Positions 162-59,506 of a stretch of DNA of 64,000 bases are shown piece by piece. The stretch lies in assembly GCF_988242995.1 (NCBI RefSeq), contig NZ_OZ547043.1. One strand, 5' to 3'. Under the pieces are notes generated by a model that did not search any database, had not been told where the DNA came from, and saw only the letters and a program-made list of their open reading frames with translations. Numbering within the stretch: position 1 is the stretch's first letter; every line of letters begins with the position of its first letter. The translations under genes were made by a program, and so were the position numbers.

Positions 162-2324
162 TTATTTCGCATCCGACTTATATTCGTATTCGTAATAGCC
201 ATAATCCTGATACGCGCTGGCGCGGCGGAAGATGGAGTTCAGAATCACCCCTTTCACCGGAATACCGTTTTGCTCAAAGCGGCTCAGACTGGTTTCCACT
301 TCTTTCAAGGTGTTGACCGCATAACGCGCCACCATTAACGTGGTTCCGACATGACGACCAACAATTGCCGCATCGGTCACTGCCAGAATCGGCGGCGTAT
401 CAATCAACACCAGGTCATAGTTTTTACTCGCCCAGTTCACCAGTTCGGCAAAGCGTTCGCTCATCAACAGTTCAGAAGGATTTGGCGGCACCTGACCGCG
501 CGGGATCAGGTCAAATTTGGCAATAGAGGTCGGTTTAGCAGCGGTAGTAATATCGCCCTGACCAATCAGAATTTCCGACAGGCCATTAACGTTATTAGTG
601 CCCAGCAGCTCGTGGGTGTAGCCTTTGCGCATATCGCAGTCGATCAACAACACCCGTTTATTGGTCTGGCTGATCACCGCCGCCAGGTTGGCGCAGACAA
701 AGGTTTTACCGATTGACGGGCTAACCCCGGTCATCATCAACACATTGTTCTGTGCCTGCATCATCGCGAAGTGCAAACTGGTACGCAGACTGCGGATGGC
801 TTCAATCGCCAGATCGGTTGGATTCCCCATCGCCAGTAGCTGGCTCTGTTTATAGCGTTTAATCCCTTTGATGGTTTTGACGCTATCGCGCGCTTTCTGC
901 CATTCCGACAGCGGGATGCTGGCATAGACGCTGATACCGTGTTCTTCCAGCACCTGCGGGCTTTCGATGCCGCGATTAAACAACGAGCGCAGCAGCACAC
1001 CCACGATAGAAAGCATCAGGCCAAGGATAATCGCGCCGAGGATAATCAGCCCTTTCTTCGGTTTCAGCACGCCAGGCTGGGTGATTGCCGGGTCAACAAT
1101 GCGCACATCGCCGACGGTGCTGGCTTCGGTGATTTTCAGCTCCTGCTCTTTATTCAGCAGTTGCATATAGACCTGCTGACCAGACTCGACATCGCGGGTC
1201 AGGCGCACAATCTCCTGCTGGGTTTTCGGCATCGCCGTTACGCGACCGTTAAGTTTGGCTTTCTCTTCTTCCAGCGCCTGACGTTTCTCCAGCAGCGTGC
1301 GGTACGCCGGGTGAACTTTGGTGTACAGCTTGGAGATTTCCGCCTCTTTAAAGGTCAGTTCGTTCAACTGCGCGTCGATGTTCACCATCGAATCGAGCAC
1401 CGCTTTCGCTTCCAGCGGCAGATCAACAGAATCTTTATCCTGACGGAAGGCATTCAGTTTGTTTTCGGCAACATCGAGGCGGCTACGTACTTCCGGTAAC
1501 TGTTGCGCGAGGAAAGCGAGGCTTTTCGACGCTTCCGCCGATTTGCGCTCAATATTTTGTTCCTGATAGTTACGGGCGATGCTGTTAAGAATGTCGCGGA
1601 TCTGTTCGCGATCTTCACCGGTATAAGTCAGGCTCAGTACGCCTGCGTCTTTGCCGTTCTCCGTTACCGTCAGGCTGTTTTGCAGTTGGTTGATCATCCC
1701 CAACGTGGAGTATTTGGTGACGGCAAACTCACTGCCCGGGCGGGCGTGAATGGCTTCAACCATCAGCGTGACGCCTTCTTTTTTCAGCATCTGGCCCGCT
1801 TGCCCACGGGCGCTAAAGCCGCCATCACTGCTCAGGGTGTAGTTTTTATTGTCCAGCACATTAAGCGTAAACACCTGGTCCGCCATCTCTTTCGGGCGGT
1901 TAAAGGTGGTCACTTTCACCGTCTCGTTCTGACGTCCCATCAAACGATCCCAGCCCGCACCGAAAATCGGGAACGTGTTTTTGCTCACCGCAATATCGAG
2001 GTCGAGATCGTCCACCGTTTTACCAAGCACCAGGCGCGAACGAATCAACTGGATCTCGGCGTCCGATGCAGGCGGTTTGTTGGCTAATGCCGAACCAATG
2101 TCCTGCACTAACGAATTGCCGCTGTTTTGCTCGATTTGTACCAGTGCGTCGGCACTATAAATCGGCGTGGCGAAGAAGGTGTAAACCACGGCACAGAGGG
2201 CAAATACAGCGGTGATGCCAATCACCCACCAGCGCGCTTCAATGACGGTGCCGACCAGGCGACCAATATCGATTTCATCACTGCCCGTTACCGGAGCGGC
2301 ATGTTGTTTTACTTTTTCTGTCAT
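162..2324 (-). CDS. wzc: Colanic acid/capsule tyrosine autokinase Wzc
   Basis: ORF track 162..2360; start trimmed to ATG at 2324 (MTEKVKQHAAPVTG...), giving 720 aa. Walker-type BY-kinase region and Tyr-rich C-terminus (YQDYGYYEYEYKSDAK). Confidence 0.9.
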   Translation of the reverse strand: MTEKVKQHAAPVTGSDEIDIGRLVGTVIEARWWVIGITAVFALCAVVYTFFATPIYSADALVQIEQNSGNSLVQDIGSALANKPPASDAEIQLIRSRLVLGKTVDDLDLDIAVSKNTFPIFGAGWDRLMGRQNETVKVTTFNRPKEMADQVFTLNVLDNKNYTLSSDGGFSARGQAGQMLKKEGVTLMVEAIHARPGSEFAVTKYSTLGMINQLQNSLTVTENGKDAGVLSLTYTGEDREQIRDILNSIARNYQEQNIERKSAEASKSLAFLAQQLPEVRSRLDVAENKLNAFRQDKDSVDLPLEAKAVLDSMVNIDAQLNELTFKEAEISKLYTKVHPAYRTLLEKRQALEEEKAKLNGRVTAMPKTQQEIVRLTRDVESGQQVYMQLLNKEQELKITEASTVGDVRIVDPAITQPGVLKPKKGLIILGAIILGLMLSIVGVLLRSLFNRGIESPQVLEEHGISVYASIPLSEWQKARDSVKTIKGIKRYKQSQLLAMGNPTDLAIEAIRSLRTSLHFAMMQAQNNVLMMTGVSPSIGKTFVCANLAAVISQTNKRVLLIDCDMRKGYTHELLGTNNVNGLSEILIGQGDITTAAKPTSIAKFDLIPRGQVPPNPSELLMSERFAELVNWASKNYDLVLIDTPPILAVTDAAIVGRHVGTTLMVARYAVNTLKEVETSLSRFEQNGIPVKGVILNSIFRRASAYQDYGYYEYEYKSDAK

Positions 2325-2326
2325 TC

Positions 2327-2770
2327 TTATACCTGCTCTGCGTTCAATGCCTGCGCCCACTGGCGGGCAGACCGTTCAAGTAATGTGTACACCGCTGCAA
2401 ACGTTTCCCGGCTTTTGCGATACGGATCGGGGATTTCACATTCGTTATCCCAGTGACCAAACAGCATCACTTTGCCGCGCATCTCAGGTGCCATCTCGCA
2501 TAAGCGTTCGATATGGCGCTTTTCCATGGTCAAAATCAGGTCGTAGTTGCGACACAGACGGCGGCTGATTTGACGGGCACAGTGACCTTCCAGAGACAGT
2601 TGATGTTCTGCGGCGACGCTGATAGCGGTAGGATCAGCGCCCTTACCGACCAGCGCGCCGAGTCCAGCGGACTCCACTTTCAGCTCCGGGTGATAACGTT
2701 GCAGTAAGCGTTCCGCCGTCGGGGAACGGCAAATATTGCCGACACAGACAACTAAGATGTTGTTAAACAT
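2327..2770 (-). CDS. wzb: Low-molecular-weight protein-tyrosine phosphatase Wzb
   Basis: 147-aa ORF; N-terminal CVGNICRSP motif (CX5R LMW-PTP signature); immediately upstream of wzc. Confidence 0.9.
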   Translation of the reverse strand: MFNNILVVCVGNICRSPTAERLLQRYHPELKVESAGLGALVGKGADPTAISVAAEHQLSLEGHCARQISRRLCRNYDLILTMEKRHIERLCEMAPEMRGKVMLFGHWDNECEIPDPYRKSRETFAAVYTLLERSARQWAQALNAEQV

Positions 2771-2775
2771 GACGA

Positions 2776-3915
2776 TTACCAGTTATGAATGTCGCTGGCT
2801 GTATCCGTCATGTAACGGACACCGCTAATAGTTGGCAGCAACTGATTGATCAGACGGTTCCAGCGGGAAACCGGGGCGGTGGTGACATACACCACGTCAT
2901 AAGGTTGCAGGCGGAATTCTGTCGCCATCACCAGCGACGTGGCATCGGACATATCCAGCTGGTAGATATTGGCAATCTTGCCGTTACGCCCGCCCTCGCC
3001 TTTCAGCGGACGAATGACAAAGATGCCGCTGGCGTTGGAGGTGGTCATGTCGATGCCTTCAGCATTGCCCAGGGCTTCGGTCAGGGTCATGCCGCTAAAG
3101 TCCATTTTCAGGGTGCTCTGTTTCTTCACTTCACCCATCACAAATACTTTCAGATCATCATTACGTGGCACGTAGAGAATATCGCCGGGGTAAAGCAGGC
3201 GATTCTGGTTGAGGTCGCCGTTTTGCATCAGCGCCTGCAAAGAAATGCGTTCTTCACGACCATTGTGTGTTAACACCACGTTGCGCCAGTCAGCGGTGTC
3301 GGTCAGGCCACCTGCGGCGTTGATGGCGTCGAGAATAGTCAGTGGCACGTTGGTGATCGCCTGTTGACCGGATTTATTCACCTGACCGGAGATATAGGCC
3401 TTTTGTGAGCGGAAGGCGGCGATATTAACGTCCACCTGCGGGTCAGCGATGTACGTCGCTAAGCGCCCGGTAATATCACTGCGGATTTCAGCGAGCGTTT
3501 TCCCGACTACGTGAACCTTGCCGATATACGGGTAGAACATAGTGCCGTCAGGCTGTACCCAGTTGCCGGTGTCGCTGGAGCTGCGGTACTGACCAGCTGG
3601 CGTGGTGAGTTCCGGGTGATCCCAGACGGTGACATTAAGAACGTCGCCCGGCCCGACGCGATACTGGTAATTCGCGATCTCACTTTCCAGCGTCATATTG
3701 GGGCGCGCTACATTCGGGCGTGGGCGTAATTGGTCAATCAGGCGCGGGGTCAACGGATAAACATTCACCATTTTGTCGAGATCGAAATCAGCGTCCTGCT
3801 GTTTGATGACGTCTTTGCCCATCGTCGACATATTGCTGCCCGGAAGTACTGTGCAACCGCTTATCAAGGTTACTGACACCAATAATGGCATCAATTTCAT
3901 TTTGGATTTCATCAT
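2776..3915 (-). CDS. wza: Outer-membrane polysaccharide export lipoprotein Wza
   Basis: 379-aa ORF; signal peptide with lipobox (LISGC); conserved wza-wzb-wzc order. Confidence 0.9.
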
Positions 3916-4093: not shown

Positions 4094-4105
4094 CACGCTA
4101 CCGCC
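4094..4105 (-). promoter_or_regulatory. ops element (GGCGGTAGCGTG) within JUMPstart region of the wza leader
   Basis: Reverse complement of 4094..4105 reads GGCGGTAGCGTG, the RfaH-recruiting ops sequence; located in the untranslated leader upstream of wza. Confidence 0.6.
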
Positions 4106-4572
4106 CCTGGCTTTTTAGCTACCAATACACTGATTTAGCTTAATTTTTCAAACCCTCTCTGCATACAATCGTTGATGAGAAAGGGTTATTGCGGAAATTA
4201 ACTTCCGAATATAAGGTGACATTATGGTAATTGAATATTGGCTCTCCAATAATGCAGGAGGAAGTGTTACAGCTAACGGAATAGCAGGCAAGGTAACAAT
4301 TCGGCAATTGGCTATTTTTAAGAATTATATTAAGTGTCATTCAATATGGTTTTTAGGAGTTTCTTTAGGTTGACAATATTTAATATTGCGTCTCCACATG
4401 CGATATTTCTTAAATATGTTTTATTATTACCACTTTTAATTCAGGGATAATGTGAGGTTATTACCCTCAAATAATATGAGATAAATAGTGCTGCAACATT
4501 GCATTTTTGCCCCGATTTATCCATGATCGAATTGTGACATTTGTCATACAACGAATAGGTTTTGTACTTACT

Positions 4573-17382: not shown

Positions 17383-18140
17383 GGTAACCACAGCGCCAGT
17401 GCCAACGTTTTATCATCATCCGTACGCTCGTTTACCGCCGGGCTGGACAAAAACTGCTTTAACAATTCAGGTAATAAATCGAGTTGTTCCTGCGTTGCTG
17501 ACGCCAGTCCATTGAAAAACGGGGTAAAGAAAGGTACATGAGGAGAATTATCCAGCATATTTAACGCCAGTCGCTGGATACCATCCGTAAATGCTGCAAC
17601 TTTGTGCGCACGCCCAGTGCTGGTGAAAGTTTCCAGTCTGGAAACGGCATCTTCGTCGGTAATGAAGTGCGTCATATTGGCATATTCACCCACCATCGGC
17701 GTGAGAGGCAATTGCAGACCGTGACCCAAATCTACCACCATGCCGCCATCGCCAATCTGCATAATCAAGGTGCCGTCAGGCGATGAAATCAGTCCCAGAA
17801 ATGTACAGGCAAAATCGCGAACCGCTAATTCTTTGGCTTCCGCCTCGGCAAAAAGTCGTTGACGAATGGTCAGCACAATATCCGTGGCGAGGACATCATT
17901 AAGCCCCAATTCCCCGCCCTGCACTTTTTGCGACATATAAGCCATCGCTTCATTGACGGCGAGCATCGCGCCTTCGCCACCCTGCGAGACACTGCCTGCG
18001 CCATCAGCGACAAATACCGACAATAATGGCTGCTGGTCATTTAACCAGGCAACCTGCATCTGGCAGGCATCCTGGCAAGGCAAGTCCGCGCTGATGTGCG
18101 ACGTTCCAACGGTTGATGCATAGACCAGACGCCAGCTCAC
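17379..18140 (-). CDS. pphC: PP2C-family protein phosphatase PphC (YegK)
   Basis: 253-aa ORF; PP2C-like acidic motifs ([12 protein letters not shown]); translationally coupled to yegI and yegL. Confidence 0.85.
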
Positions 18141-18796
18141 ACTGACGTCCAGCCTTTTGGCGCTTCCAGCACAACTTCCGTTCCCGGCGTGGAGCGGGAA
18201 ACCGAACGCAGCGAACTGGATAACCAGCTAAACAGTTCACGGAATTGTAATCCCTGCAGTGGCAAAGGCTGACGAACGCTGATTTGTGCCAGCGTCTTCA
18301 TATCCGCCCCCTGTACACCAATGGTAAAGAAGGCAAACTTCTTATCTTCTTCCCCCTGAAACACTTTGTTGGCGGCAGCCTGCCACTCATCGGTTGGAGC
18401 GCCATCGGTGATCAGGAAAATCCACGGGCGATAATAGGAAATACCATTTGCACGATACTCACGTTTCCGCTCCTCTACCATATCCAGGGCTTTGGTAATG
18501 GCAGCGCCCATTGGTGTATCGCCCTGGGCAAACAGGATGGGCGGGAAAAAATTAGCGGCGCTGGTAAAGGGTTGTTCCACATGCACCGGGCCGAACGTCA
18601 CAATGCCGAGTTCCACTCTTTTTAAGGCTAGCGAATCGGCAAGCAGTTCATCGCGAAAGGTAACCAATCCGGCGTTAAGTTCATTAATAGGTCTACCACT
18701 CATCGAACCAGAAACATCCAACAGCAAAATGCAGGGGCAACGTGGTTCCGGGTTACTGGCAAAATCGCTGGTGGCAAACGTGATTTGTTCGCTCAT
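18137..18796 (-). CDS. yegL: von Willebrand factor A domain protein YegL
   Basis: 219-aa ORF with vWA MIDAS-type motif (DVSGSMSG); first gene of the yegL-pphC-yegI operon. Confidence 0.85.
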
Positions 18797-18979
18797 AAGA
18801 AATCCTTTCTTAGAGAATTATCGAGGTCCGGTATCATACCGATTGCAATAATGAAATAAGAGCAAACGAAGAAACTTTCAGAATTAGGCCCGGCGGCGCA
18901 GAAAATTTTGCTATTCGCCTCGCAAGAACGGAGAGCCGTCGATTGACACTAAGGGCGGAGTGACATAATTTCAGGAGTG

Positions 18980-19126
18980 AGGGTTAGGGAGAGGTTTCCC
19001 CCTCCCCCTGGTGTTCTTAGTAAGCCTGGAAGCTAATCACTAAGAGTATCACCAGTATGATGACGTGCTTCATCATAACCCTTTCCTTATTAAAAGCCCT
19101 CTTCTCCGGGAGAGGGTTTCCCGTTT
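18980..19126 (+). ncRNA. sibA: Sib antitoxin sRNA, copy 1 (antisense to ibs copy 1)
   Basis: Sigma70-like promoter TTGACA (18943-18948), 17-bp spacer, TAATTT (18966-18971); intrinsic terminator hairpin CCCTCTTCTCCGGGAGAGGG plus T-tract ending ~19126; fully overlaps ibs on the opposite strand. Ends are approximate. Confidence 0.6.
19017..19076 (-). CDS. ibsA: Type I toxin Ibs, copy 1 (MMKHVIILVILLVISFQAY)
   Basis: 19-codon ORF on the minus strand encoding a hydrophobic Ibs-family peptide; embedded in the first ~330-bp tandem unit. Confidence 0.75.
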   Translation of the reverse strand: MMKHVIILVILLVISFQAY

Positions 19127-19312
19127 CAGCGTCCCGCTGAAATCGTCGGCTTACCTCCTTTCGCCCTGAATGCAGTCTATCGCTAACGCGTGAACAAAAT
19201 AGTTTCCTCTGTGATTATTGCGTAACGACTCGCAAAGAATATTTGCTGGCAGGATCGCAGACTGCAAAGCCTGCGGATTGACAATCTTATCGTGAAGGCA
19301 TAATTTCAGGAG

Positions 19313-19454
19313 TGAGGGTAGAGCGGGGTTTCCCCCGCCCTGGTAGTCTTAGTAAGCGGGGAAGCTTATGACTAAGAGCACCACGATGATGAGTAGCTTC
19401 ATCATGACCCTTTCCTTATTTAAGGCCCCTTCCTCGGGAGGGGCTTTCCCGTTT
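19313..19454 (+). ncRNA. sibB: Sib antitoxin sRNA, copy 2
   Basis: Promoter TTGACA (19278-19283), 17-bp spacer, TAATTT (19301-19306); terminator hairpin GGCCCCTTCCTCGGGAGGGGC plus T-tract ending ~19454. Ends are approximate. Confidence 0.6.
19349..19405 (-). CDS. ibsB: Type I toxin Ibs, copy 2 (MMKLLIIVVLLVISFPAY)
   Basis: 18-codon minus-strand ORF; Ibs-family hydrophobic peptide within the second tandem unit. Confidence 0.75.
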   Translation of the reverse strand: MMKLLIIVVLLVISFPAY

Positions 19455-19640
19455 CAGCGTCCCGCTGAAATCGTCGACTTACCTCCTTTCGCCCTGTATG
19501 CAGTCTATCGCTGACTTGCGGATAAAATAGTTTCCAGTGTGATTATTGCGTAACGTCTCGCAAAGAATATTTGCTGGCAGGATCGCAGACTGCAAAGCCT
19601 GCAGATTGACAATCTTATCGTGAAGGCATACTTTCAGGAG

Positions 19641-19782
19641 TGAGGGTAGAGCGGGGTTTCCCCCGCCCTGGTAGTCTTAGTATGCTGGGTAGCTAATCAC
19701 TAAGAGCACCACGATGATGATCCACTTCATCATGACCCTTTCCTTATTTAAGGCCCCTTCCTCGGGAGGGGCTTTCCCGTTT
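19641..19782 (+). ncRNA. Sib antitoxin sRNA, copy 3
   Basis: Promoter TTGACA (19606-19611), 17-bp spacer, TACTTT (19629-19634); terminator hairpin plus T-tract ending ~19782. Ends are approximate. Confidence 0.55.
19677..19733 (-). CDS. Type I toxin Ibs, copy 3 (MMKWIIIVVLLVISYPAY)
   Basis: 18-codon minus-strand ORF, paralogous to copies 1 and 2, within the third tandem unit. Confidence 0.7.
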   Translation of the reverse strand: MMKWIIIVVLLVISYPAY

Positions 19783-19940
19783 CAGCGTCCCGCTGAAATC
19801 GTCGGCTTACCTCCTTTCGCCATGCAAGCAGTCTATCGCTAACGCGTAGATAAAATAGTTTCATGTGTTATTACTGGATGCGTGCTCGCAAATGTGCCCG
19901 TCATTCAGACGATTCCCGACAGTGTTTCATAATTCCTCCA

Positions 19941-20011: not shown

Positions 20012-21259
20012 ATGAAAGGCAGTTATAAATCCCGTTGGGTAATCGTAATCGTGGTGGTTATCGCCGCCATCGCCGCATTCTGGTTCTGGCAAGGCCGCAA
20101 TGACTCCCGGAGTGCAGCCCCAGGGGCGACGAAACAAGCGCAGCAATCGCCAGCGGGTGGTCGCCGTGGTATGCGTTCCGGCCCATTAGCCCCGGTTCAG
20201 GCGGCGACCGCCGTAGAACAGGCTGTTCCGCGTTACCTCACCGGGCTTGGCACCATTACCGCCGCTAATACTGTTACGGTGCGCAGCCGCGTGGACGGTC
20301 AACTGATGGCGTTACATTTCCAGGAAGGCCAGCAGGTCAAAGCAGGCGATTTACTGGCAGAAATTGACCCCAGCCAGTTCAAAGTTGCATTAGCACAAGC
20401 CCAGGGCCAACTGGCAAAAGATAAAGCCACGCTTGCCAACGCCCGCCGTGACCTGGCGCGTTATCAGCAACTGGCAAAAACCAATCTCGTATCTCGTCAG
20501 GAACTGGATGCCCAACAAGCGCTGGTCAGTGAAACCGAAGGCACCATTAAGGCTGATGAAGCAAGCGTCGCCAGCGCGCAGCTGCAACTCGACTGGAGCC
20601 GCATCACCGCACCAGTCGATGGTCGCGTTGGTCTCAAGCAGGTTGATGTTGGTAACCAAATCTCCAGTGGTGATACCACCGGGATTGTGGTGATCACCCA
20701 GACGCATCCTATCGATTTGCTCTTTACCCTGCCGGAAAGCGATATCGCTACCGTAGTACAGGCGCAAAAAGCCGGAAAACCGCTGGTTGTTGAAGCCTGG
20801 GATCGCACCAACTCGAAGAAATTAAGTGAAGGCACGCTGTTAAGTCTCGATAACCAAATCGATGCCACTACCGGTACGATTAAAGTGAAAGCACGCTTTA
20901 ATAATCAGGATGATGCGCTGTTTCCCAATCAGTTTGTTAACGCGCGTATGTTAGTCGACACCGAACAAAACGCCGTGGTGATCCCCACCGCCGCTCTGCA
21001 AATGGGCAACGAAGGCCATTTTGTCTGGGTGCTGAATAGCGAAAACAAGGTCAGCAAACATCTGGTGACGCCGGGCATTCAGGACAGTCAGAAAGTGGTG
21101 ATCCGCGCAGGTATTTCTGCGGGCGACCGCGTAGTGACAGACGGCATTGATCGCCTGACCGAAGGGGCGAAAGTGGAAGTAGTGGAAGCCCAGAGCGCCA
21201 CCACTCCGGAAGAGAAAGCCACCAGCCGCGAATACGCGAAAAAAGGAGCACGCTCCTGA
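20012..21259 (+). CDS. mdtA: RND efflux membrane-fusion protein MdtA
   Basis: ORF track 19865..21259; start set to ATG 20012 ([19 protein letters not shown]...), giving 415 aa. Confidence 0.9.
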
Positions 21260-33069: not shown

Positions 33070-33099
33070 GCTGCATTTATTAAGGTTATCATCTGTTTC

Positions 33100-33186
33100 G
33101 CTGAAAAACATAACCCATAAAATGCTAGCTGTACCAGGAACCACCTCCTTAGCCTGTGTAATCTCCCTTACACGGGCTTATTTTTT
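33100..33186 (+). ncRNA. cyaR: CyaR (RyeE) Hfq-dependent sRNA
   Basis: 87 nt recognised from memory as CyaR: GCTGAAAAACATAACCCATAAAATGCTAGCTGTACCAGGAACCACCTCCTTAGCCTGTGTAATCTCCCTTACACGGGCTTATTTTTT, ending in an intrinsic terminator. Confidence 0.85.
33160..33186. other. P2-type attachment-site core (27 bp) overlapping the cyaR 3' terminator
   Basis: AATCTCCCTTACACGGGCTTATTTTTT is the reverse complement of the P2 att core AAAAAATAAGCCCGTGTAAGGGAGATT as recalled; it abuts the ogr end of the prophage. Confidence 0.7.
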
Positions 33187-39890: not shown

Positions 39891-40257
39891 CCGTTTAACT
39901 CCGTGGTTAATGGGTGCAACTATTTTCTGTTGTGCAGAGCATGAGACGCTATTTGCCCTGGATGGTCAGTGGATGAAACAACAGATACAGAAAAGGCGGG
40001 CAATTCGCCCGCATTTCCTAATTTGTACTAACCCAGCTTCCAACTGACAATTTACGTAGCCAAAAAGCTATCAAGTCTGGCAGACTGATTTGTACGAGGT
40101 GTGGATAACCATAATTATGTGCATGCTAACATCACGGTGCATGAGTCAATCGGGTCTATGCCAAAGAATTACGCCTTGATTGACCATAGATTGCTTGCCC
40201 TTGAATTTGACCATTCCAATAAAATGAATTATGATAATCGTCAAATGGAGGTGCACA

Positions 40258-40902
40258 ATGATCAAACACACCGCAGCAGAAAGGGAAACCAACACTTCAG
40301 CTAAGCTGAATGAATACCAGTTGAACCTTCTGAAAAGAATTAACAACCTCGCTATTTCCCTGATGCCTGAATTTGAAGACAAAAACCAGGCAATTAATGC
40401 TATCACGCTGGATGATAGTTCACTGATGCAATTGCTCTACACCGTTCAACTCGAACAGAAGACTCGTGTCAATGACTACGAACTACGTAAAGTGCGCCGT
40501 CGTCGCGAAAATCTGGAACGATTTTATCGTGGGCTTCAGGAGTTAGGCGGTACGCTAAAGGTAAATGACGTGGTCGATATTCTTGGAATCACCCGCCAGG
40601 CGATCAACATTCGCGTTAAGAAGAACAAGCTTTTAGCATTCAAGCAGAACGGTGATTTTATTTTCCCGAAATTTCAGTTCACAGATAACGGGCTGATTCC
40701 CGGCTTTGAAGACGTAATGGCGGCATTTGACGAGAATACCCATCCAATGCTGAGGTTGGGTGTGCTGAAATCACCAATAGAGGTTAATAGCGAAGGCCTG
40801 AAAAAGACGCCGATTCAAATCATGCAGGACGGCGCTAAAAATAGTGAACTTAGTCTGGCTATCCGTGCCGCTAAACAGTTCGGAAATCATGTATCCAGTT
40901 AA
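40258..40902 (+). CDS. Hotspot cargo: HTH protein with C-terminal MbcA/ParS (DUF2384)-like toxin-binding region; putative antitoxin or regulator
   Basis: ORF track 40231..40902; ATG 40258 has a GGAGG RBS, giving 214 aa. Central HTH-like segment (VVDILGITRQAINIRVKKN); C-terminal SPIEVNSEGLKKTPIQIMQDG...LSLAIRAAKQFG resembles the MbcA/ParS toxin-binding domain as recalled; not in the P2 core. Confidence 0.45.
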   Translation: MIKHTAAERETNTSAKLNEYQLNLLKRINNLAISLMPEFEDKNQAINAITLDDSSLMQLLYTVQLEQKTRVNDYELRKVRRRRENLERFYRGLQELGGTLKVNDVVDILGITRQAINIRVKKNKLLAFKQNGDFIFPKFQFTDNGLIPGFEDVMAAFDENTHPMLRLGVLKSPIEVNSEGLKKTPIQIMQDGAKNSELSLAIRAAKQFGNHVSS

Positions 40903-40908
40903 TTGTTT

Positions 40909-40940
40909 TAAAAAGAGGGGCTAGCCAGCCCCTCTTTGGT
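40909..40940. terminator. Bidirectional intrinsic terminator between the convergent cargo genes
   Basis: Hairpin AGAGGGGCT-AGCC-AGCCCCTCT flanked by T-rich runs on both strands, lying in the 38-bp gap between the two stop codons. Confidence 0.6.
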
Positions 40941-41651
40941 TTACATTGGTTCTGGCGTAATTTCGAATCCAAGCAGTTCTTCGAACATCTCTTCACCTGA
41001 CATCGTTCCTTTGTGCCACCCTTTAGGGAAGATACCTTCGTCATTTTCGATGTAACTGGCATAAGGCACCATCCCCTGAGGGGTATCGGTAAAGGCTGGT
41101 GTACTATCCGGTCGTTCCCAAAAGGCATAACAGCGTTTATAGCGTTTATGCCTTGAGGTATAGGCTATCCCGTCATAGTCACGCCCGAAATGTGTATAAA
41201 GATGTTCCATTAGCCATTGAGTAAAAGTGTAATCCTCGTTCTCTAAGCTATCCAAAGGAATATGTAACAACTCACAGAGCGCTACAACATCGATCACTTT
41301 CACTGGCCTCATGACATCCACAGAGCACATATAGTGTTGTGAAAGTACCGATTCAGGATAAGAAATCGTCCCTTCGAGATGGAGCAAACGCCCATAAGCT
41401 TCTGCCGCCGCCGTTAACGCAGAGTCAGAGGCATACCATACCGCCACACATCCCCCTGGGGGGTTGTATCGCCCACATTCATTTTCCTCAATTGGCGCTC
41501 TGAAGTTGATTGCGCTTTCATACAACGCCCTTTGATGACGCTTCAAAAGACCAGAGCCTGGTTGAATGTCAATCGCCGGAATACGTCCAGATTTATTTTT
41601 TGCAGCAATTCCTTGTGCAACAATATTTTTTTCAAATGTCCATTTGGTCAT
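40941..41651 (-). CDS. Hotspot cargo: RES-domain protein (putative NAD+-consuming toxin)
   Basis: ORF track 40941..41699; ATG 41651 has an AAGGAG RBS, giving 236 aa. N-terminal CGRYNPPGGCVAVWYASDSALTAAAE matches the RES signature GGRWNPP...Y.A.S...A..E (Arg, Glu); later DGIAYTSRH supplies the conserved Ser. Confidence 0.55.
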   Translation of the reverse strand: MTKWTFEKNIVAQGIAAKNKSGRIPAIDIQPGSGLLKRHQRALYESAINFRAPIEENECGRYNPPGGCVAVWYASDSALTAAAEAYGRLLHLEGTISYPESVLSQHYMCSVDVMRPVKVIDVVALCELLHIPLDSLENEDYTFTQWLMEHLYTHFGRDYDGIAYTSRHKRYKRCYAFWERPDSTPAFTDTPQGMVPYASYIENDEGIFPKGWHKGTMSGEEMFEELLGFEITPEPM

Positions 41652-42066
41652 TTTTACTACTCCTTCTATAAACAGATTAAGCCATAGGCTCCTCTCCATA
41701 TTGATTGAAAATAATCCCTACCGTGCTTGCCCGGCAGGGGGTATGAGAACATGTGTATCTCAATCTCGATTATACCAAGCAAATTTTCTATTTTTCGGAA
41801 ATTTAGAGAGTTTTTTTAATGCTTCGCATGCCTTCTCGATGTATTGATGGGGCTGAAAAGAAGAAATAACGCAGGAAGTTTTACGGAAAGGAGAACTATA
41901 AAGATTTTTTTCAAGTGAATTAGAAATAAGAACTTCGCAGGATACTGCATTTTTAGTGAAGATGGGTTGAGTTTCTCAGCAAGAGTCCCGCGAGAGCCGT
42001 ATTGACAGCATGCATGACTCGGAGATTATTCCCCATGCAGGATGGTACACCAATGCAAGAGTTGGT

Positions 42067-57554: not shown

Positions 57555-59387
57555 TCAAACAGAGCCCTGTTCAAAAACAGTATCAAAATATGGTAGGAGA
57601 GGATAAGCACACAGAAAGAAAATCAGGATGCATGCATATGTCGTTGTTTCATCGTAACAAGCATTAGTATATAAATTACCATGTGCTAATTTATGTCTTA
57701 AGGTTGCCCCACTCTTTCTGTTAAAAAGAACATCGATAGTCAAAACAAGATTTTTAGAAAAGATACTTTCCAAATCATCTCTGCATTTATCTAGAAGCTG
57801 AGAAATACTTGTTGACTCCTCTAATCCCTTATCCAAATATCTAGTAGCATCCTTTCCACTAAGCTCATAATAATAACGAACCATACCTTCCATTTGTGGT
57901 ATTAAAAGATAAGCTGCACTGATGTAATCTCCCTGCCATAATTTGTAAAAGCCCAAATTAAAAATCTCCCTAAACTCCGGCTTGACAATTGGACTAGTTG
58001 TAACCAATTTAACGAATGTTGACAACGTCAAGCCATGTTCTTGAGAAAGTACATAGCGAGCAGGTTCAAAGACACCGTTTACAAAAATCTTATGAGTAAT
58101 CTCGAAATTTCTTAGATATTGATCAATAACAACATCATCACTCATATCTTTTTTATTATCCAACGGCGGGATTGTATATATCTTACGCCCACTCTCATCA
58201 TTAATTTCTGTTCCAACAAAACTAGAGAATAAACTTTTTTCTGATAATCTTAAAACTTGTTCCCTCATGCTTTCAATATTTTCAATCGGTGTTTCACTCA
58301 TTAAAACTTTGAATATATCGGGCAAAGAACGCCCCGTCAGTTTTTTTTCACTTTCAGCAACCAAGTCACTAATATCAATAGAATGGCTTAAAGTGACATA
58401 TTCACTCCTTACTTCTTCTCTCAAATTAGCAAGTTGTTCCTTTAAATCTTCTATCTGTTGGCTATCACCACCGTACTGTCTTAATTCAGAGATAGCTGTT
58501 CTTAACCAAGAGATCTTACCCATATTATCAGGTCGTTCTGTTGCAACTTTAATAGTAATATTTGCAGATGCCAGTTTACATCTCTTGGCACGTTCATACT
58601 CACCATTTTTTTCATAAATAACTGCACTTGTCATATAAAGTGATTTTACAGCATCATAATATTTTTTATCTTTATGCTGCTCAGCCATCTTCTCAGCATT
58701 TTCCGCATACTGCAGATTATACCCATCAAAATCACGCACCATAAACCAAGTCAAATTATTGAAACCTTCAAAGATTAATCTTTCATTTTGAATACTATAA
58801 AGAGAATGAATGGCATTTTTAATCGCCATGTTTCCTTCTGATTTTCTAGGGTAGACCATTTTATTAATGTGCAAAGCCCTAGCAATATAATCACGAGCAA
58901 AAATAAAGCAATTTAAATCACTTTCATCCATGCTTTCGTTTTTTATTATTAGCTTTTCAATTGCTATATTTAGCATTTCAGCATAGGAATCAATTGCTTT
59001 AATTGCCACGTCTTTATTTTTCCGATTATTACACCAAACAACATCATATATTCTTGATAACAAAAATGGATTGGTTATTTTTTGAGAAACATATAAAAGA
59101 CAGTCATTCACCTGCTCATCAAAATCTTCAGGCAATATTGATCTTTTATTACCCCAAATCATTTGGGGTTCAAATGCTGGAGTGTTGTTAACAACTTGCA
59201 AATTGAAACTATATAGCATACCAAAAAGAGATGCTAATTTTTTCTCTTTGGGGTTTTCTGATGACTCAGCAATCCCATCCAGATATTTTTTTATTTTATG
59301 TGCATGAAATGTAACTGGTATATACATAAAAACACTATAATCTAGTGTTTCAAGCTCTTCCCTTGTAAGAACAAAGATATCATTCAT
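57555..59387 (-). CDS. Hotspot cargo: large AT-rich protein of unknown family with C-terminal HEPN-like Rx4H motif; candidate anti-phage effector
   Basis: ORF track 57555..59492; likely start ATG 59387 with AAGGTGA RBS (MNDIFVLTREELETLDY...), giving 610 aa. Occupies the position of P2 tin/old; codon usage visibly AT-rich; no Walker A, TOPRIM or RT motif seen; LRHKLAHG near the C-terminus. Confidence 0.6.
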   Translation of the reverse strand: MNDIFVLTREELETLDYSVFMYIPVTFHAHKIKKYLDGIAESSENPKEKKLASLFGMLYSFNLQVVNNTPAFEPQMIWGNKRSILPEDFDEQVNDCLLYVSQKITNPFLLSRIYDVVWCNNRKNKDVAIKAIDSYAEMLNIAIEKLIIKNESMDESDLNCFIFARDYIARALHINKMVYPRKSEGNMAIKNAIHSLYSIQNERLIFEGFNNLTWFMVRDFDGYNLQYAENAEKMAEQHKDKKYYDAVKSLYMTSAVIYEKNGEYERAKRCKLASANITIKVATERPDNMGKISWLRTAISELRQYGGDSQQIEDLKEQLANLREEVRSEYVTLSHSIDISDLVAESEKKLTGRSLPDIFKVLMSETPIENIESMREQVLRLSEKSLFSSFVGTEINDESGRKIYTIPPLDNKKDMSDDVVIDQYLRNFEITHKIFVNGVFEPARYVLSQEHGLTLSTFVKLVTTSPIVKPEFREIFNLGFYKLWQGDYISAAYLLIPQMEGMVRYYYELSGKDATRYLDKGLEESTSISQLLDKCRDDLESIFSKNLVLTIDVLFNRKSGATLRHKLAHGNLYTNACYDETTTYACILIFFLCAYPLLPYFDTVFEQGSV

Positions 59388-59506
59388 CGTTTTCACCTTT
59401 TTCAGTATAAATTTGCACGCATTATTATTAGCAACATAATCATCAATAGTTAACACATGCAGATAGACAGCAATTTTACTATTATGCAACAAATTAAATC
59501 AGATGT

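What the first reader, a model, noticed from the sequence alone, without database searches (positions are those of the whole stretch)
18940..19800. Three tandem ibs/sib type I toxin-antitoxin units between yegL and mdtA
Three ~330-bp repeat units each encode an 18-19-codon hydrophobic Ibs toxin (MMKHVIILVILLVISFQAY, MMKLLIIVVLLVISFPAY, MMKWIIIVVLLVISYPAY) on the minus strand, overlapped by a Sib antisense sRNA with its own promoter and terminator on the plus strand. From memory K-12 has two units (ibsA, ibsB) here, so this strain appears to carry an extra copy. The third peptide has distinct substitutions (W4, Y15) and its Sib promoter -10 differs (TACTTT versus TAATTT), suggesting divergence after duplication.
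Basis: partly seen in the sequence, partly recalled or inferred. Interest (0 to 1): 0.45.

Follow-up and report, generated by a model that had tools for sequence, protein, structure and literature searches.

The report
Three-copy ibs/sib toxin-antitoxin array
The stretch between yegL and mdtA holds three tandem copies of the well-known E. coli Ibs toxin / Sib antisense-RNA module; K-12 has two, but three is as common among sequenced E. coli and is already annotated in public genomes, so the finding is correct but ordinary.

Summary
Three tandem units (periods 335 and 328 bp) lie between yegL and mdtA. Each gives a full-length Rfam SIB_RNA match on the + strand (139-150 bits, cutoff 56). Each carries an 18-19-codon ORF on the - strand that passes the Pfam Ibs_toxin cutoff. 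Units 1 and 2 are K-12 sibA/ibsA and sibB/ibsB, with 1 and 2 base differences. K-12 MG1655 has only these two.

The third unit is not a peculiarity of this strain. In evenly spaced samples of 5,422 complete E. coli records, about 38-40% have three units here, about 40% have two and about 13-15% have four. The exact third allele (MMKWIIIVVLLVISYPAY, RefSeq WP_100249716.1) occurs in 129 of 5,426 genomes.

Its -10 box, TACTTT, is the -10 box of K-12 sibB and the majority form. It is therefore not a sign that the third copy has diverged.

Units 2 and 3 differ at 9 of 136 RNA positions. All nine fall in two loops that Han et al. 2010 linked to target recognition.

Verdict: a real and correctly identified member of a known system, in a known copy-number polymorphism. 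Interest is low. A modest side lead is that alleles of the two recognition loops occur in many combinations across strains.

The parts
18137..18796 (-). yegL (vWA-domain protein), left flank of the array
   Evidence: ORF; Pfam VWA; RefSeq annotation of the 99.9% identical locus.
18964..19873 (.). Tandem array of three ~330-bp SIB/QUAD repeat units
   Evidence: TRF period 328, 2.8 copies, score 1426; three-way alignment with 88% mean column identity; unit spacings 335 and 328 bp.
18943..18971 (+). Unit 1 Sib promoter: -35 TTGACA (18943-18948), 17-bp spacer, -10 TAATTT (18966-18971)
   Evidence: Read directly from the sequence. Identical to the K-12 sibA upstream region. The geometry places +1G at 18979, the annotated K-12 sibA start. 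sibA and sibB are reported to start with +1G (PMC12956327).
18979..19122 (+). SibA antisense RNA (144 nt), with terminator hairpin at about 19094-19118
   Evidence: Coordinates transferred from the NC_000913.3 sibA annotation. One base differs from K-12 across the compared stretch (RNA plus 40 upstream and 10 downstream bases). Rfam 149.5 bits. Fold -58.5 kcal/mol, z -4.9.
19017..19076 (-). ibsA ORF, MMKHVIILVILLVISFQAY (19 aa)
   Evidence: same peptide as RefSeq WP_010723109.1, annotated IbsA; Pfam Ibs_toxin 48.8 bits.
19278..19306 (+). Unit 2 Sib promoter: -35 TTGACA (19278-19283), 17-bp spacer, -10 TAATTT (19301-19306)
   Evidence: K-12 sibB has TACTTT here, so this unit carries the minority -10 form, seen in 10 of 46 sampled B-type units.
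19314..19449 (+). SibB-type antisense RNA (136 nt), with terminator hairpin at about 19422-19446
   Evidence: Coordinates transferred from the K-12 sibB annotation. Two bases differ from K-12 over 186 nt: one in the -10 box and one in the J1/7 single strand. Rfam 143.5 bits. Fold z -4.4.
19349..19405 (-). ibsB ORF, MMKLLIIVVLLVISFPAY (18 aa)
   Evidence: RefSeq WP_001386899.1 in K-12 derivatives and in the best-matching genome; Pfam 41.5 bits.
19606..19634 (+). Unit 3 Sib promoter: -35 TTGACA (19606-19611), 17-bp spacer, -10 TACTTT (19629-19634)
   Evidence: The -10 box is identical to that of K-12 sibB and is the majority form, seen in 35 of 46 sampled B-type units.
19642..19777 (+). Third Sib antisense RNA (136 nt, predicted), with terminator hairpin at about 19750-19774
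   Evidence: Rfam 139.2 bits. Same predicted architecture as SibA and SibB, -60.1 kcal/mol, z -4.7. The J1/7 single strand and the terminator are identical to unit 2.
19677..19733 (-). Third ibs ORF, MMKWIIIVVLLVISYPAY (18 aa)
   Evidence: RefSeq WP_100249716.1, 'type I toxin-antitoxin system Ibs family toxin'; Pfam 35.3 bits. The 76-nt core is at least 99% identical in 129 of 5,426 E. coli genomes.
19683..19698 (.). Variable patch 1 of unit 3 (Sib +42 to +57, ibs codons 12-17), equivalent to SibC TRD1 / the P5 loop
   Evidence: Five of the nine unit 2 / unit 3 differences lie here: four synonymous third positions and F15Y. High-frequency polymorphism across 26 distinct B-type sequences. TRD1 is defined in PMC2943612.
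19721..19724 (.). Variable patch 2 of unit 3 (Sib +80 to +83, ibs codons 4-5), the loop of the AUGAUGA/UCAUCAU hairpin (P6)
   Evidence: The other four unit 2 / unit 3 differences, GUAG versus UCCA, giving LL versus WI.
20012..21259 (+). mdtA (RND efflux membrane-fusion subunit), right flank of the array
   Evidence: ORF; RefSeq annotation of the matching locus.

Best explanation
The region is a three-unit allele of the chromosomal ibs/sib (SIB/QUAD repeat) type I toxin-antitoxin array that sits upstream of mdtA in Escherichia.

Each unit encodes an 18-19-residue hydrophobic Ibs membrane toxin on the minus strand. On the plus strand it encodes a fully overlapping antisense Sib RNA of about 140 nt, driven by its own sigma-70 promoter and ended by its own hairpin terminator.

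By homology with the studied K-12 pairs, the abundant Sib RNA pairs with its ibs mRNA, starting from exposed recognition regions (the P5 loop, called TRD1, and the J1/7 strand, called TRD2, helped by the P6 loop). Pairing blocks the ribosome-binding site and triggers RNase III-dependent decay, so the toxin is not made. If Ibs escapes repression it inserts into the inner membrane and lowers membrane potential and ATP.

Units 1 and 2 are the K-12 sibA/ibsA and sibB/ibsB pairs. Unit 3 is a further B-type unit. Its two recognition loops combine an allele seen in O157-type 'WI' units with one seen in 'Y15' units.

The array size (1 to 4 units seen) varies among Escherichia, presumably by unequal crossing-over and gene conversion between the ~330-bp repeats. 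The window shows one common state of that polymorphism.

Shown here: sequence identity, family membership, anatomy and population frequency. Inferred: expression, toxicity, repression and the recombination history.
For: Family membership: three full-length SIB_RNA hits and three Ibs_toxin hits above the Pfam cutoff.

Identity with K-12: over the compared stretches (each RNA plus 40 upstream and 10 downstream bases) unit 1 differs from K-12 sibA/ibsA by one base and unit 2 from sibB/ibsB by two. The K-12 RNA ends are curated in NC_000913.3.

Anatomy: all three RNAs are predicted to fold into the same architecture, with z-scores of -4.4 to -4.9. Unit 3 has -35 TTGACA, a 17-bp spacer, a -10 box identical to K-12 sibB, and +1G. 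It has the same Shine-Dalgarno sequence, J1/7 strand and terminator as unit 2, and an intact ORF.

Frequency: RefSeq annotates the same three peptides in a 99.9% identical locus and in unrelated strains. In a 60-row even sample, 23 rows have three units, 24 have two and 8 have four. A 40-row sample gave 16, 17 (counting CFT073) and 6. The exact unit 3 core occurs in 129 of 5,426 genomes.

Other arrays: O145:H28 has A, LL-F, WI-F, IL-Y. O157:H7 has A, WI-F, IL-Y. APEC IMT5155 has A, WI-Y. These fit gain and loss of whole units.

Outgroups: a single unit lies upstream of mdtA in Citrobacter, Salmonella diarizonae, E. whittamii and Escherichia sp. MOD1-EC7003. Two units occur in Escherichia sp. 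E1V33.

Mechanism, from the literature: cognate-specific repression through TRD1 and TRD2 (PMC2943612). Translation block and RNase III involvement (PMC4147584). Membrane depolarisation by E. coli Ibs, and FoF1 ATP synthase as the target of Salmonella IbsA (bioRxiv 10.1101/2025.05.26.656083). Seven Ibs genes counted in O157:H7 Sakai in 2010 (PMC2887945).
Against: Nothing in the sequence argues against this reading. The limits are as follows.

No expression, toxicity or repression data exist for the unit 3 allele.

The generic promoter/terminator scanner did not flag the Sib promoters or terminators. The -10 boxes match only 3 of 6 consensus positions and the terminator T-runs are interrupted. 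Their function rests on identity with the K-12 genes.

I could not define ibs promoters for the A- and B-type units.

The unit-number frequencies are estimates from evenly spaced samples of a ranked list, not a full census.

NCBIfam gave no HMM hit for the peptides.
Confidence: 0.93

Rival explanations
1. The third unit is a recent, strain-specific duplication of ibsB/sibB that has begun to diverge.
For: Units 2 and 3 are much more alike than either is to unit 1, and they share the 3-bp deletions. Recent duplications do occur: strain TKEC21-17 has two adjacent units encoding the same IbsB peptide.
Against: The nine differences inside the RNA are not scattered. They form two multi-base patches. 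Each patch matches alleles present in other lineages: UCCA/WI as in O157:H7 unit 2, and the Y15 patch as in O157:H7 unit 3 and strain 504237 unit 3. The same three-unit array occurs in unrelated strains, and the allele is in 129 genomes. Three- and four-unit arrays make up about half of E. coli. Related alleles are found in other Escherichia species. The cited -10 difference is the K-12 sibB state.
Confidence: 0.04
2. The third unit is a decaying, non-functional relic: a silent toxin gene or a dead antitoxin.
For: The biological role of chromosomal type I loci is debated, and some hok/sok copies are degenerate (PMC4147584). K-12 ibsB is annotated only as a 'putative' toxic peptide. No clear ibs promoter could be identified for B-type units.
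Against: The ORF, start codons, Shine-Dalgarno sequence, Sib promoter, +1G, structure and terminator are all intact. Outside the two loop patches they are identical to K-12 sibB/ibsB. The hydrophobic core, residues 6-14, is unchanged. The 76-nt core is 100% conserved in the listed genomes from different hosts and countries. Synonymous variation is confined to the recognition loop rather than spread through the ORF as decay would predict.
Confidence: 0.06
3. The extra unit is an assembly artefact of a tandem repeat.
For: Repeats of ~330 bp at about 90% identity can be mis-assembled from short reads.
Against: The units differ at diagnostic positions, and the array is bracketed by unique flanks. 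Independent complete genomes carry the identical arrangement.
Confidence: 0.01

Closest known systems
E. coli K-12 sibA/ibsA and sibB/ibsB (b4436/b4667, b4437/b4668), the SIB or QUAD repeats between yegL and mdtA
   Same: Same locus, same orientation and same anatomy. Over the compared stretches (each RNA plus 40 upstream and 10 downstream bases) unit 1 differs from K-12 by 1 base and unit 2 by 2 bases. Unit 3 shares the K-12 sibB -10 box, +1G, stems, J1/7 strand and terminator.
   Different: K-12 has two units and the window has three. Relative to K-12, one 328-bp period is added. Its core carries different bases in the TRD1-equivalent loop (5 nt) and the P6 loop (4 nt), giving L4W, L5I and F15Y.
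Three- and four-unit arrays of other E. coli: O157:H7 (A, WI-F, IL-Y), O145:H28 (A, LL-F, WI-F, IL-Y), and strains 7/2 and EE72d (A, LL-F, WI-Y)
   Same: Same locus and same repeat period. RefSeq annotates these ORFs as Ibs family toxins. Strains 7/2 and EE72d and O158:H23 CFIAFB20140388 carry exactly the window's three peptides.
   Different: Compared with O157:H7 and O145:H28, the window's last unit pairs the 'WI' loop allele with the 'Y15' patch. In those strains the two alleles sit in separate units.
sibC/ibsC, the experimentally dissected pair (Han et al. 2010)
   Same: Same family and same predicted fold. The TRD1 (P5 loop), P6 hairpin, J1/7 (TRD2) and terminator can all be aligned. It serves as the model for how recognition works.
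   Different: It lies at a different locus (fau-serA), starts with +1A (and is NAD-capped, PMC12956327) and has different TRD sequences. The TRD assignments for B-type units are made by alignment only.
ldr/rdl (LDR) tandem type I toxin-antitoxin repeats of E. coli
   Same: A chromosomal type I module repeated in tandem within one intergenic region, with copy number varying between strains (PMC2887945, PMC4147584).
   Different: The toxin family is unrelated (35 aa Ldr). The antitoxin pairs with the 5' UTR rather than covering the whole ORF.

Membership tests
SIB_RNA (Rfam RF00113; Sib antitoxin RNAs) | Sequence and structure match the covariance model above the curated gathering score | tested here: met
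   149.5, 143.5 and 139.2 bits against 56; full-length matches, model positions 1-147.
SIB_RNA (Rfam RF00113; Sib antitoxin RNAs) | Encoded antisense to an ibs ORF, covering the whole ORF and its ribosome-binding site | tested here: met
   The Sib spans 18979-19122, 19314-19449 and 19642-19777 contain the minus-strand ORFs 19017-19076, 19349-19405 and 19677-19733 and the upstream GGAAAGGG Shine-Dalgarno sequence.
SIB_RNA (Rfam RF00113; Sib antitoxin RNAs) | Own promoter and intrinsic terminator, giving an RNA of about 136-144 nt | tested here: met
   Tested by sequence only. The -35 TTGACA, 17-bp spacer, -10 box and +1G match K-12 sibA/sibB, and the terminator hairpins are conserved. The generic scanner did not flag them. 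The transcripts themselves cannot be observed with these tools.
Ibs toxin (Pfam PF13956) | HMM match above the gathering score; an 18-19-aa peptide with an MMK start, a hydrophobic core and an aromatic C-terminus | tested here: met
   48.8, 41.5 and 35.3 bits against 27, with the peptides submitted together with 10 upstream in-frame residues to reach the minimum length. The peptides are identical to RefSeq WP_010723109.1, WP_001386899.1 and WP_100249716.1. NCBIfam gave no HMM hit.
Ibs toxin (Pfam PF13956) | Toxic (membrane depolarisation, growth arrest) when over-produced | not testable with these tools
   Known for K-12 Ibs peptides and for Salmonella IbsA from the literature. Not known for the W4/I5/Y15 allele.
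Type I toxin-antitoxin system | The antisense RNA represses synthesis of the cognate toxin | not testable with these tools
   Full complementarity follows from the cis-antisense arrangement. Repression and its specificity between units 2 and 3 need co-expression assays.

The most novel reading that the evidence does not exclude
Across E. coli, the B-type units of this array behave as a concerted-evolution repeat in which only two recognition loops stay different. These are the TRD1-equivalent P5 loop and the 4-nt P6 loop. Their alleles are shuffled combinatorially between units and strains by short gene-conversion tracts.

The TRD1 patch changes mostly at synonymous codon positions, while all other synonymous sites of the ORF are frozen. 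That would point to selection acting on the RNA, keeping co-resident Sib/ibs pairs distinguishable, rather than on the peptide.

On this reading the window's third unit (WI loop plus Y15 patch) is a natural recombinant. Together with the other seven or more combinations seen, it would form a ready-made allelic series for working out the Sib-ibs specificity code.
Probability: 0.3. Interest if true: 0.4.

Novelty: already known. Interest (0 to 1): 0.1.

Why it matters
It matters little as a discovery. The module, its mechanism, its tandem organisation and its variable copy number are published, and the exact peptides are in RefSeq.

It is useful as a calibration point. K-12 is not representative of this locus, since about half of complete E. 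coli genomes carry three or four units.

The allelic pattern of the two recognition loops offers a cheap natural experiment on how near-identical antisense RNAs avoid, or tolerate, cross-talk. That question was last addressed with engineered SibC/SibD chimeras in 2010.

Tried and rejected
1. The generic promoter/terminator scan found none of the Sib promoters or terminators. It found only a minus-strand terminator-like site in unit 1 and a promoter-like site near mdtA. I did not take this as evidence against function, because K-12 sibA and sibB have the same sequences.

2. Fozo et al. 2008, the founding paper, could not be read by PubMed id or by PMC id. Statements about it are taken from later papers that cite it.

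3. NCBIfam HMMs gave no hit for the padded peptides. Pfam did.

4. I tried to locate the ibs promoters of units 1-3 by aligning them to the mapped ibsC start (18 nt beyond the SibC 3' end). No convincing -10/-35 pair emerged, so this is left open.

5. The plasmid collection gave 14 hits in 72,556 records. Many are large, some Mb-sized, records labelled as plasmids, and 13 of the 14 are non-mobilizable. I rejected the idea that the module is plasmid-borne.

6. The genome-contig loci came back truncated, so array sizes in E. coli E69 and E. whittamii could not be fully read.

7. My first regular-expression extractions of units missed some copies. I replaced them with ORF-anchored extraction, which still misses a few A-type units and one B-type unit (WI-F in strain 2017.17.03CC).

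8. A simple unequal-crossover origin of unit 3 from O145-type units 3 and 4 was considered and rejected. A deletion product would carry F15 with I4/L5, not Y15 with W4/I5. The site pattern needs at least three switches, which points to patchy gene conversion.
Full report

Yes. Tandem Repeats Finder reports a single array at 18964-19873 with period 328, 2.8 copies and 89% matches. A three-way alignment of the units shows 88% mean column identity. The unit spacings are 335 and 328 bp.

Rfam finds exactly three SIB_RNA (RF00113) matches in the 64-kb window. All are full length and on the + strand: 18943-19091, 19278-19420 and 19606-19748. They score 149.5, 143.5 and 139.2 bits against a gathering score of 56.

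- 19017-19076, MMKHVIILVILLVISFQAY
- 19349-19405, MMKLLIIVVLLVISFPAY
- 19677-19733, MMKWIIIVVLLVISYPAY

The peptides are shorter than the scanner's minimum length. I therefore submitted them with ten upstream in-frame residues. All three then pass the Pfam Ibs_toxin cutoff (48.8, 41.5 and 35.3 bits against 27). NCBIfam has no matching HMM.

The flanks are yegL (18137-18796, -) and mdtA (20012-21259, +).

**2. Anatomy**

The curated K-12 MG1655 record annotates two pairs at this locus and nothing else: sibA (144 nt) with ibsA, and sibB (136 nt) with ibsB.

Transferring those coordinates gives SibA at 18979-19122 and the SibB-type RNA at 19314-19449. By register, the third Sib lies at 19642-19777.

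Each is preceded by -35 TTGACA, a 17-bp spacer, a -10 hexamer and 7 bp, and then starts at G in CAGGAGT|GAGGGT. This agrees with the published +1G start of sibA and sibB (PMC12956327).

Over the compared stretches (each RNA plus 40 upstream and 10 downstream bases), unit 1 differs from K-12 sibA/ibsA by one base, in the terminator. Unit 2 differs from K-12 sibB/ibsB by two bases, one in the -10 box and one in the single-stranded J1/7 segment.

All three RNAs are predicted to fold alike. Each has a closing stem, a GC hairpin, a long hairpin with an apical loop, an AUGAUGA/UCAUCAU hairpin, a single-stranded UCCUUAUU segment and a terminator hairpin. The z-scores against shuffled sequences are -4.4 to -4.9.

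A generic consensus scanner does not flag these promoters or terminators. The reason is that the -10 boxes match only 3 of 6 consensus positions and the terminator T-runs are interrupted. Because the sequences are those of expressed K-12 genes, I do not count this against function.

**3. The third unit**

Within the 136-nt RNA, unit 3 differs from unit 2 at nine positions, and all nine fall in two patches.

- Five lie at Sib +42 to +57. By alignment with SibC, this is the TRD1 / P5-loop recognition domain defined by Han et al. (PMC2943612). In the ibs frame, four of these are synonymous third positions (codons 12, 13, 16, 17) and one gives F15Y.
- Four are the contiguous loop bases of the AUGAUGA hairpin (P6), GUAG against UCCA. 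They give L4W and L5I.

The J1/7 segment (equivalent to TRD2), the Shine-Dalgarno complement, all stems and the terminator are identical between the two units.

The -10 box of unit 3, TACTTT, is identical to that of K-12 sibB. It occurs in 35 of 46 sampled B-type units. The TAATTT of unit 2 is the minority form, seen in 10 of 46.

**4. How common is this?**

I searched 5,426 complete E. coli genomes.

- With the window locus as query, 5,419 genomes match. In a 40-row evenly spaced sample, 16 rows span the full 1,601 bases in one piece (three units). Another 16 rows are 328 bp shorter (two units, including K-12 derivatives), and CFT073 makes 17. About 6 rows carry more than three units.
- With the four-unit O145:H28 locus as query, a 60-row sample gives 8 rows with four units, 23 with three and 24 with two. 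The few others are interrupted by IS150 or IS421 or are truncated.

So three units are about as frequent as the K-12 state. These figures are sample estimates, not a full census.

RefSeq already annotates the ORFs. The best match (O158:H23 CFIAFB20140388, 99.9% identity) lists IbsA, WP_001386899.1 and WP_100249716.1, the same three peptides.

The 76-nt core of unit 3 is at least 99% identical in 129 genomes. The same A / LL-F / WI-Y array is in strains 7/2 and EE72d. A two-unit A / WI-Y array is in APEC IMT5155.

Fozo et al. 2010 had already counted seven Ibs genes in O157:H7 Sakai, against five in K-12, and discussed lineage-specific duplications (PMC2887945). O157:H7 has three units at this locus.

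**5. History**

A scan of species-representative genomes finds a single ibs/sib unit upstream of mdtA in several Citrobacter species, Salmonella diarizonae, E. whittamii and Escherichia sp. MOD1-EC7003. Two B-type units occur in Escherichia sp. E1V33, and two units occur independently in Pseudocitrobacter faecalis.

The locus is therefore old. The array expanded within Escherichia and is polymorphic within E. coli.

Unit 3 of the window is not a fresh copy of unit 2. Site by site, its promoter spacer and P6 loop resemble O157:H7 unit 2, while its TRD1 patch and right flank resemble O157:H7 unit 3. That pattern needs several switches, so I infer gene conversion in short tracts rather than one crossover.

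Relative to K-12, the added material is one 328-bp period containing the unit 3 core. K-12 sibB has the unit 2 core with the unit 3 downstream flank.

**6. Mechanism**

This section rests on the literature for the family and is inferred for this allele.

- The Sib RNAs overlap the whole ibs ORF and its ribosome-binding site. Pairing begins at TRD1 and TRD2 and spreads. It blocks translation and leads to RNase III-dependent decay (PMC2943612; PMC4147584).
- Repression is cognate-specific except for ibsA.
- Over-produced Ibs peptides depolarise the membrane. Salmonella IbsA binds the a and b subunits of Fo and lowers ATP (bioRxiv 10.1101/2025.05.26.656083).
- The invariant core of the B-type peptides (residues 6-14, IIVVLLVIS) is intact in unit 3.

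Whether Sib-2 and Sib-3 cross-repress cannot be decided from sequence. In SibC either TRD suffices, and units 2 and 3 share the TRD2 equivalent. However, TRD2 also needs the P6 loop, and that loop differs at all four bases.

**7. Side lead**

I collected 26 distinct B-type Sib sequences from 21 strains. Of their nucleotide diversity, 71% lies in 20 of 136 positions: +42 to +57 and +80 to +83.

Synonymous third positions are polymorphic at high frequency in codons 12, 13, 16 and 17, as is the third position of codon 15 (part of the F/Y to W change). They are invariant in codons 6-11.

The Y15-type patch occurs with all three loop alleles: GUAU 6, UCCA 5 and GUAG 5 in my non-random sample. The UCCA loop occurs with both F-type and Y-type patches. 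Four-gamete logic with multi-base alleles therefore implies exchange between sites only about 23 nt apart.

This extends the remark by Han et al. that the TRDs sit in variable regions. It could reflect selection for distinguishable pairs, or merely relaxed constraint in loops. I did not find it described in the searchable literature, but the founding 2008 paper could not be read.

**8. Verdict**

The extra copy is a common, already annotated allele of a known copy-number polymorphism. Novelty: already known. Interest: low.

Noticed in passing
window 19683-19698 and 19721-19724; loci L001-L022: Among B-type units from 21 E. coli strains, 71% of nucleotide diversity sits in two patches: the TRD1-equivalent loop and the 4-nt P6 loop. 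The patch alleles occur in at least eight combinations. Variation in the first patch is mostly at synonymous sites, while other synonymous sites of the ORF are invariant.
   Followed up: partly
window 19301-19306: Unit 2 (the sibB equivalent) has -10 TAATTT where K-12 sibB and 35 of 46 sampled B-type units have TACTTT. The variant is shared with O158:H23 CFIAFB20140388, B20159 and GmM062. Its effect on SibB level is unknown.
   Followed up: partly
window 19097-19116 (- strand): The complement of the SibA terminator is itself a terminator-like hairpin followed by CTTTTAATAA. It lies in the ibsA leader just upstream of the Shine-Dalgarno sequence. In units 2 and 3 the T-run is shorter. It might attenuate ibsA transcription; sibA-deficient cells are reported to remain viable while expressing ibsA. 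This is speculation.
   Followed up: no
window about 33500-64000: A P2-like prophage lies next to CyaR (33098-33183), where K-12 has only a remnant (from memory). Genes found include gpD, tape measure, sheath, tail fibre, baseplate J, terminases, P2 capsid, portal and gpA.
   Followed up: partly
window 57555-59492 (-): A 645-aa DUF7380 protein sits between the portal gene and gpA of the prophage, a P2 cargo hotspot (from memory). It matches the PADLOC candidate defence family PDC-S39 (E = 2.9e-84).
   Followed up: partly
window 40231-41699: A RES-domain protein (40941-41699, -) lies next to a divergent 223-aa ORF (40231-40902, +) that has no Pfam or PADLOC hit. The pair sits between the sheath and tail-fibre genes of the prophage. 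It may be a toxin-antitoxin or defence cargo.
   Followed up: no
L006, L021 and hit H136 (other E. coli strains): The same ibs/sib array is interrupted by insertion sequences in some strains: IS150 next to or replacing the yegL side in strain 20 and strain E1, and IS421 between units in strain 2017.17.03CC.
   Followed up: no
L018 (E. coli TKEC21-17): A four-unit array contains two adjacent units that encode the identical IbsB peptide. This is an apparently recent duplication, showing that unit gain is ongoing.
   Followed up: no
L023-L047 (other Enterobacteriaceae): A single ibs/sib unit lies upstream of an mdtA homologue in several Citrobacter species, Salmonella diarizonae, E. whittamii and Escherichia sp. 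MOD1-EC7003. The association with mdtA therefore predates Escherichia. Pseudocitrobacter faecalis has two units 276 bp apart.
   Followed up: partly
window 4094-4132 (-): A JUMPstart element (57.3 bits) lies upstream of the wza/wzc capsule-export genes (162-3915, -). This is ordinary for the colanic acid locus.
   Followed up: no
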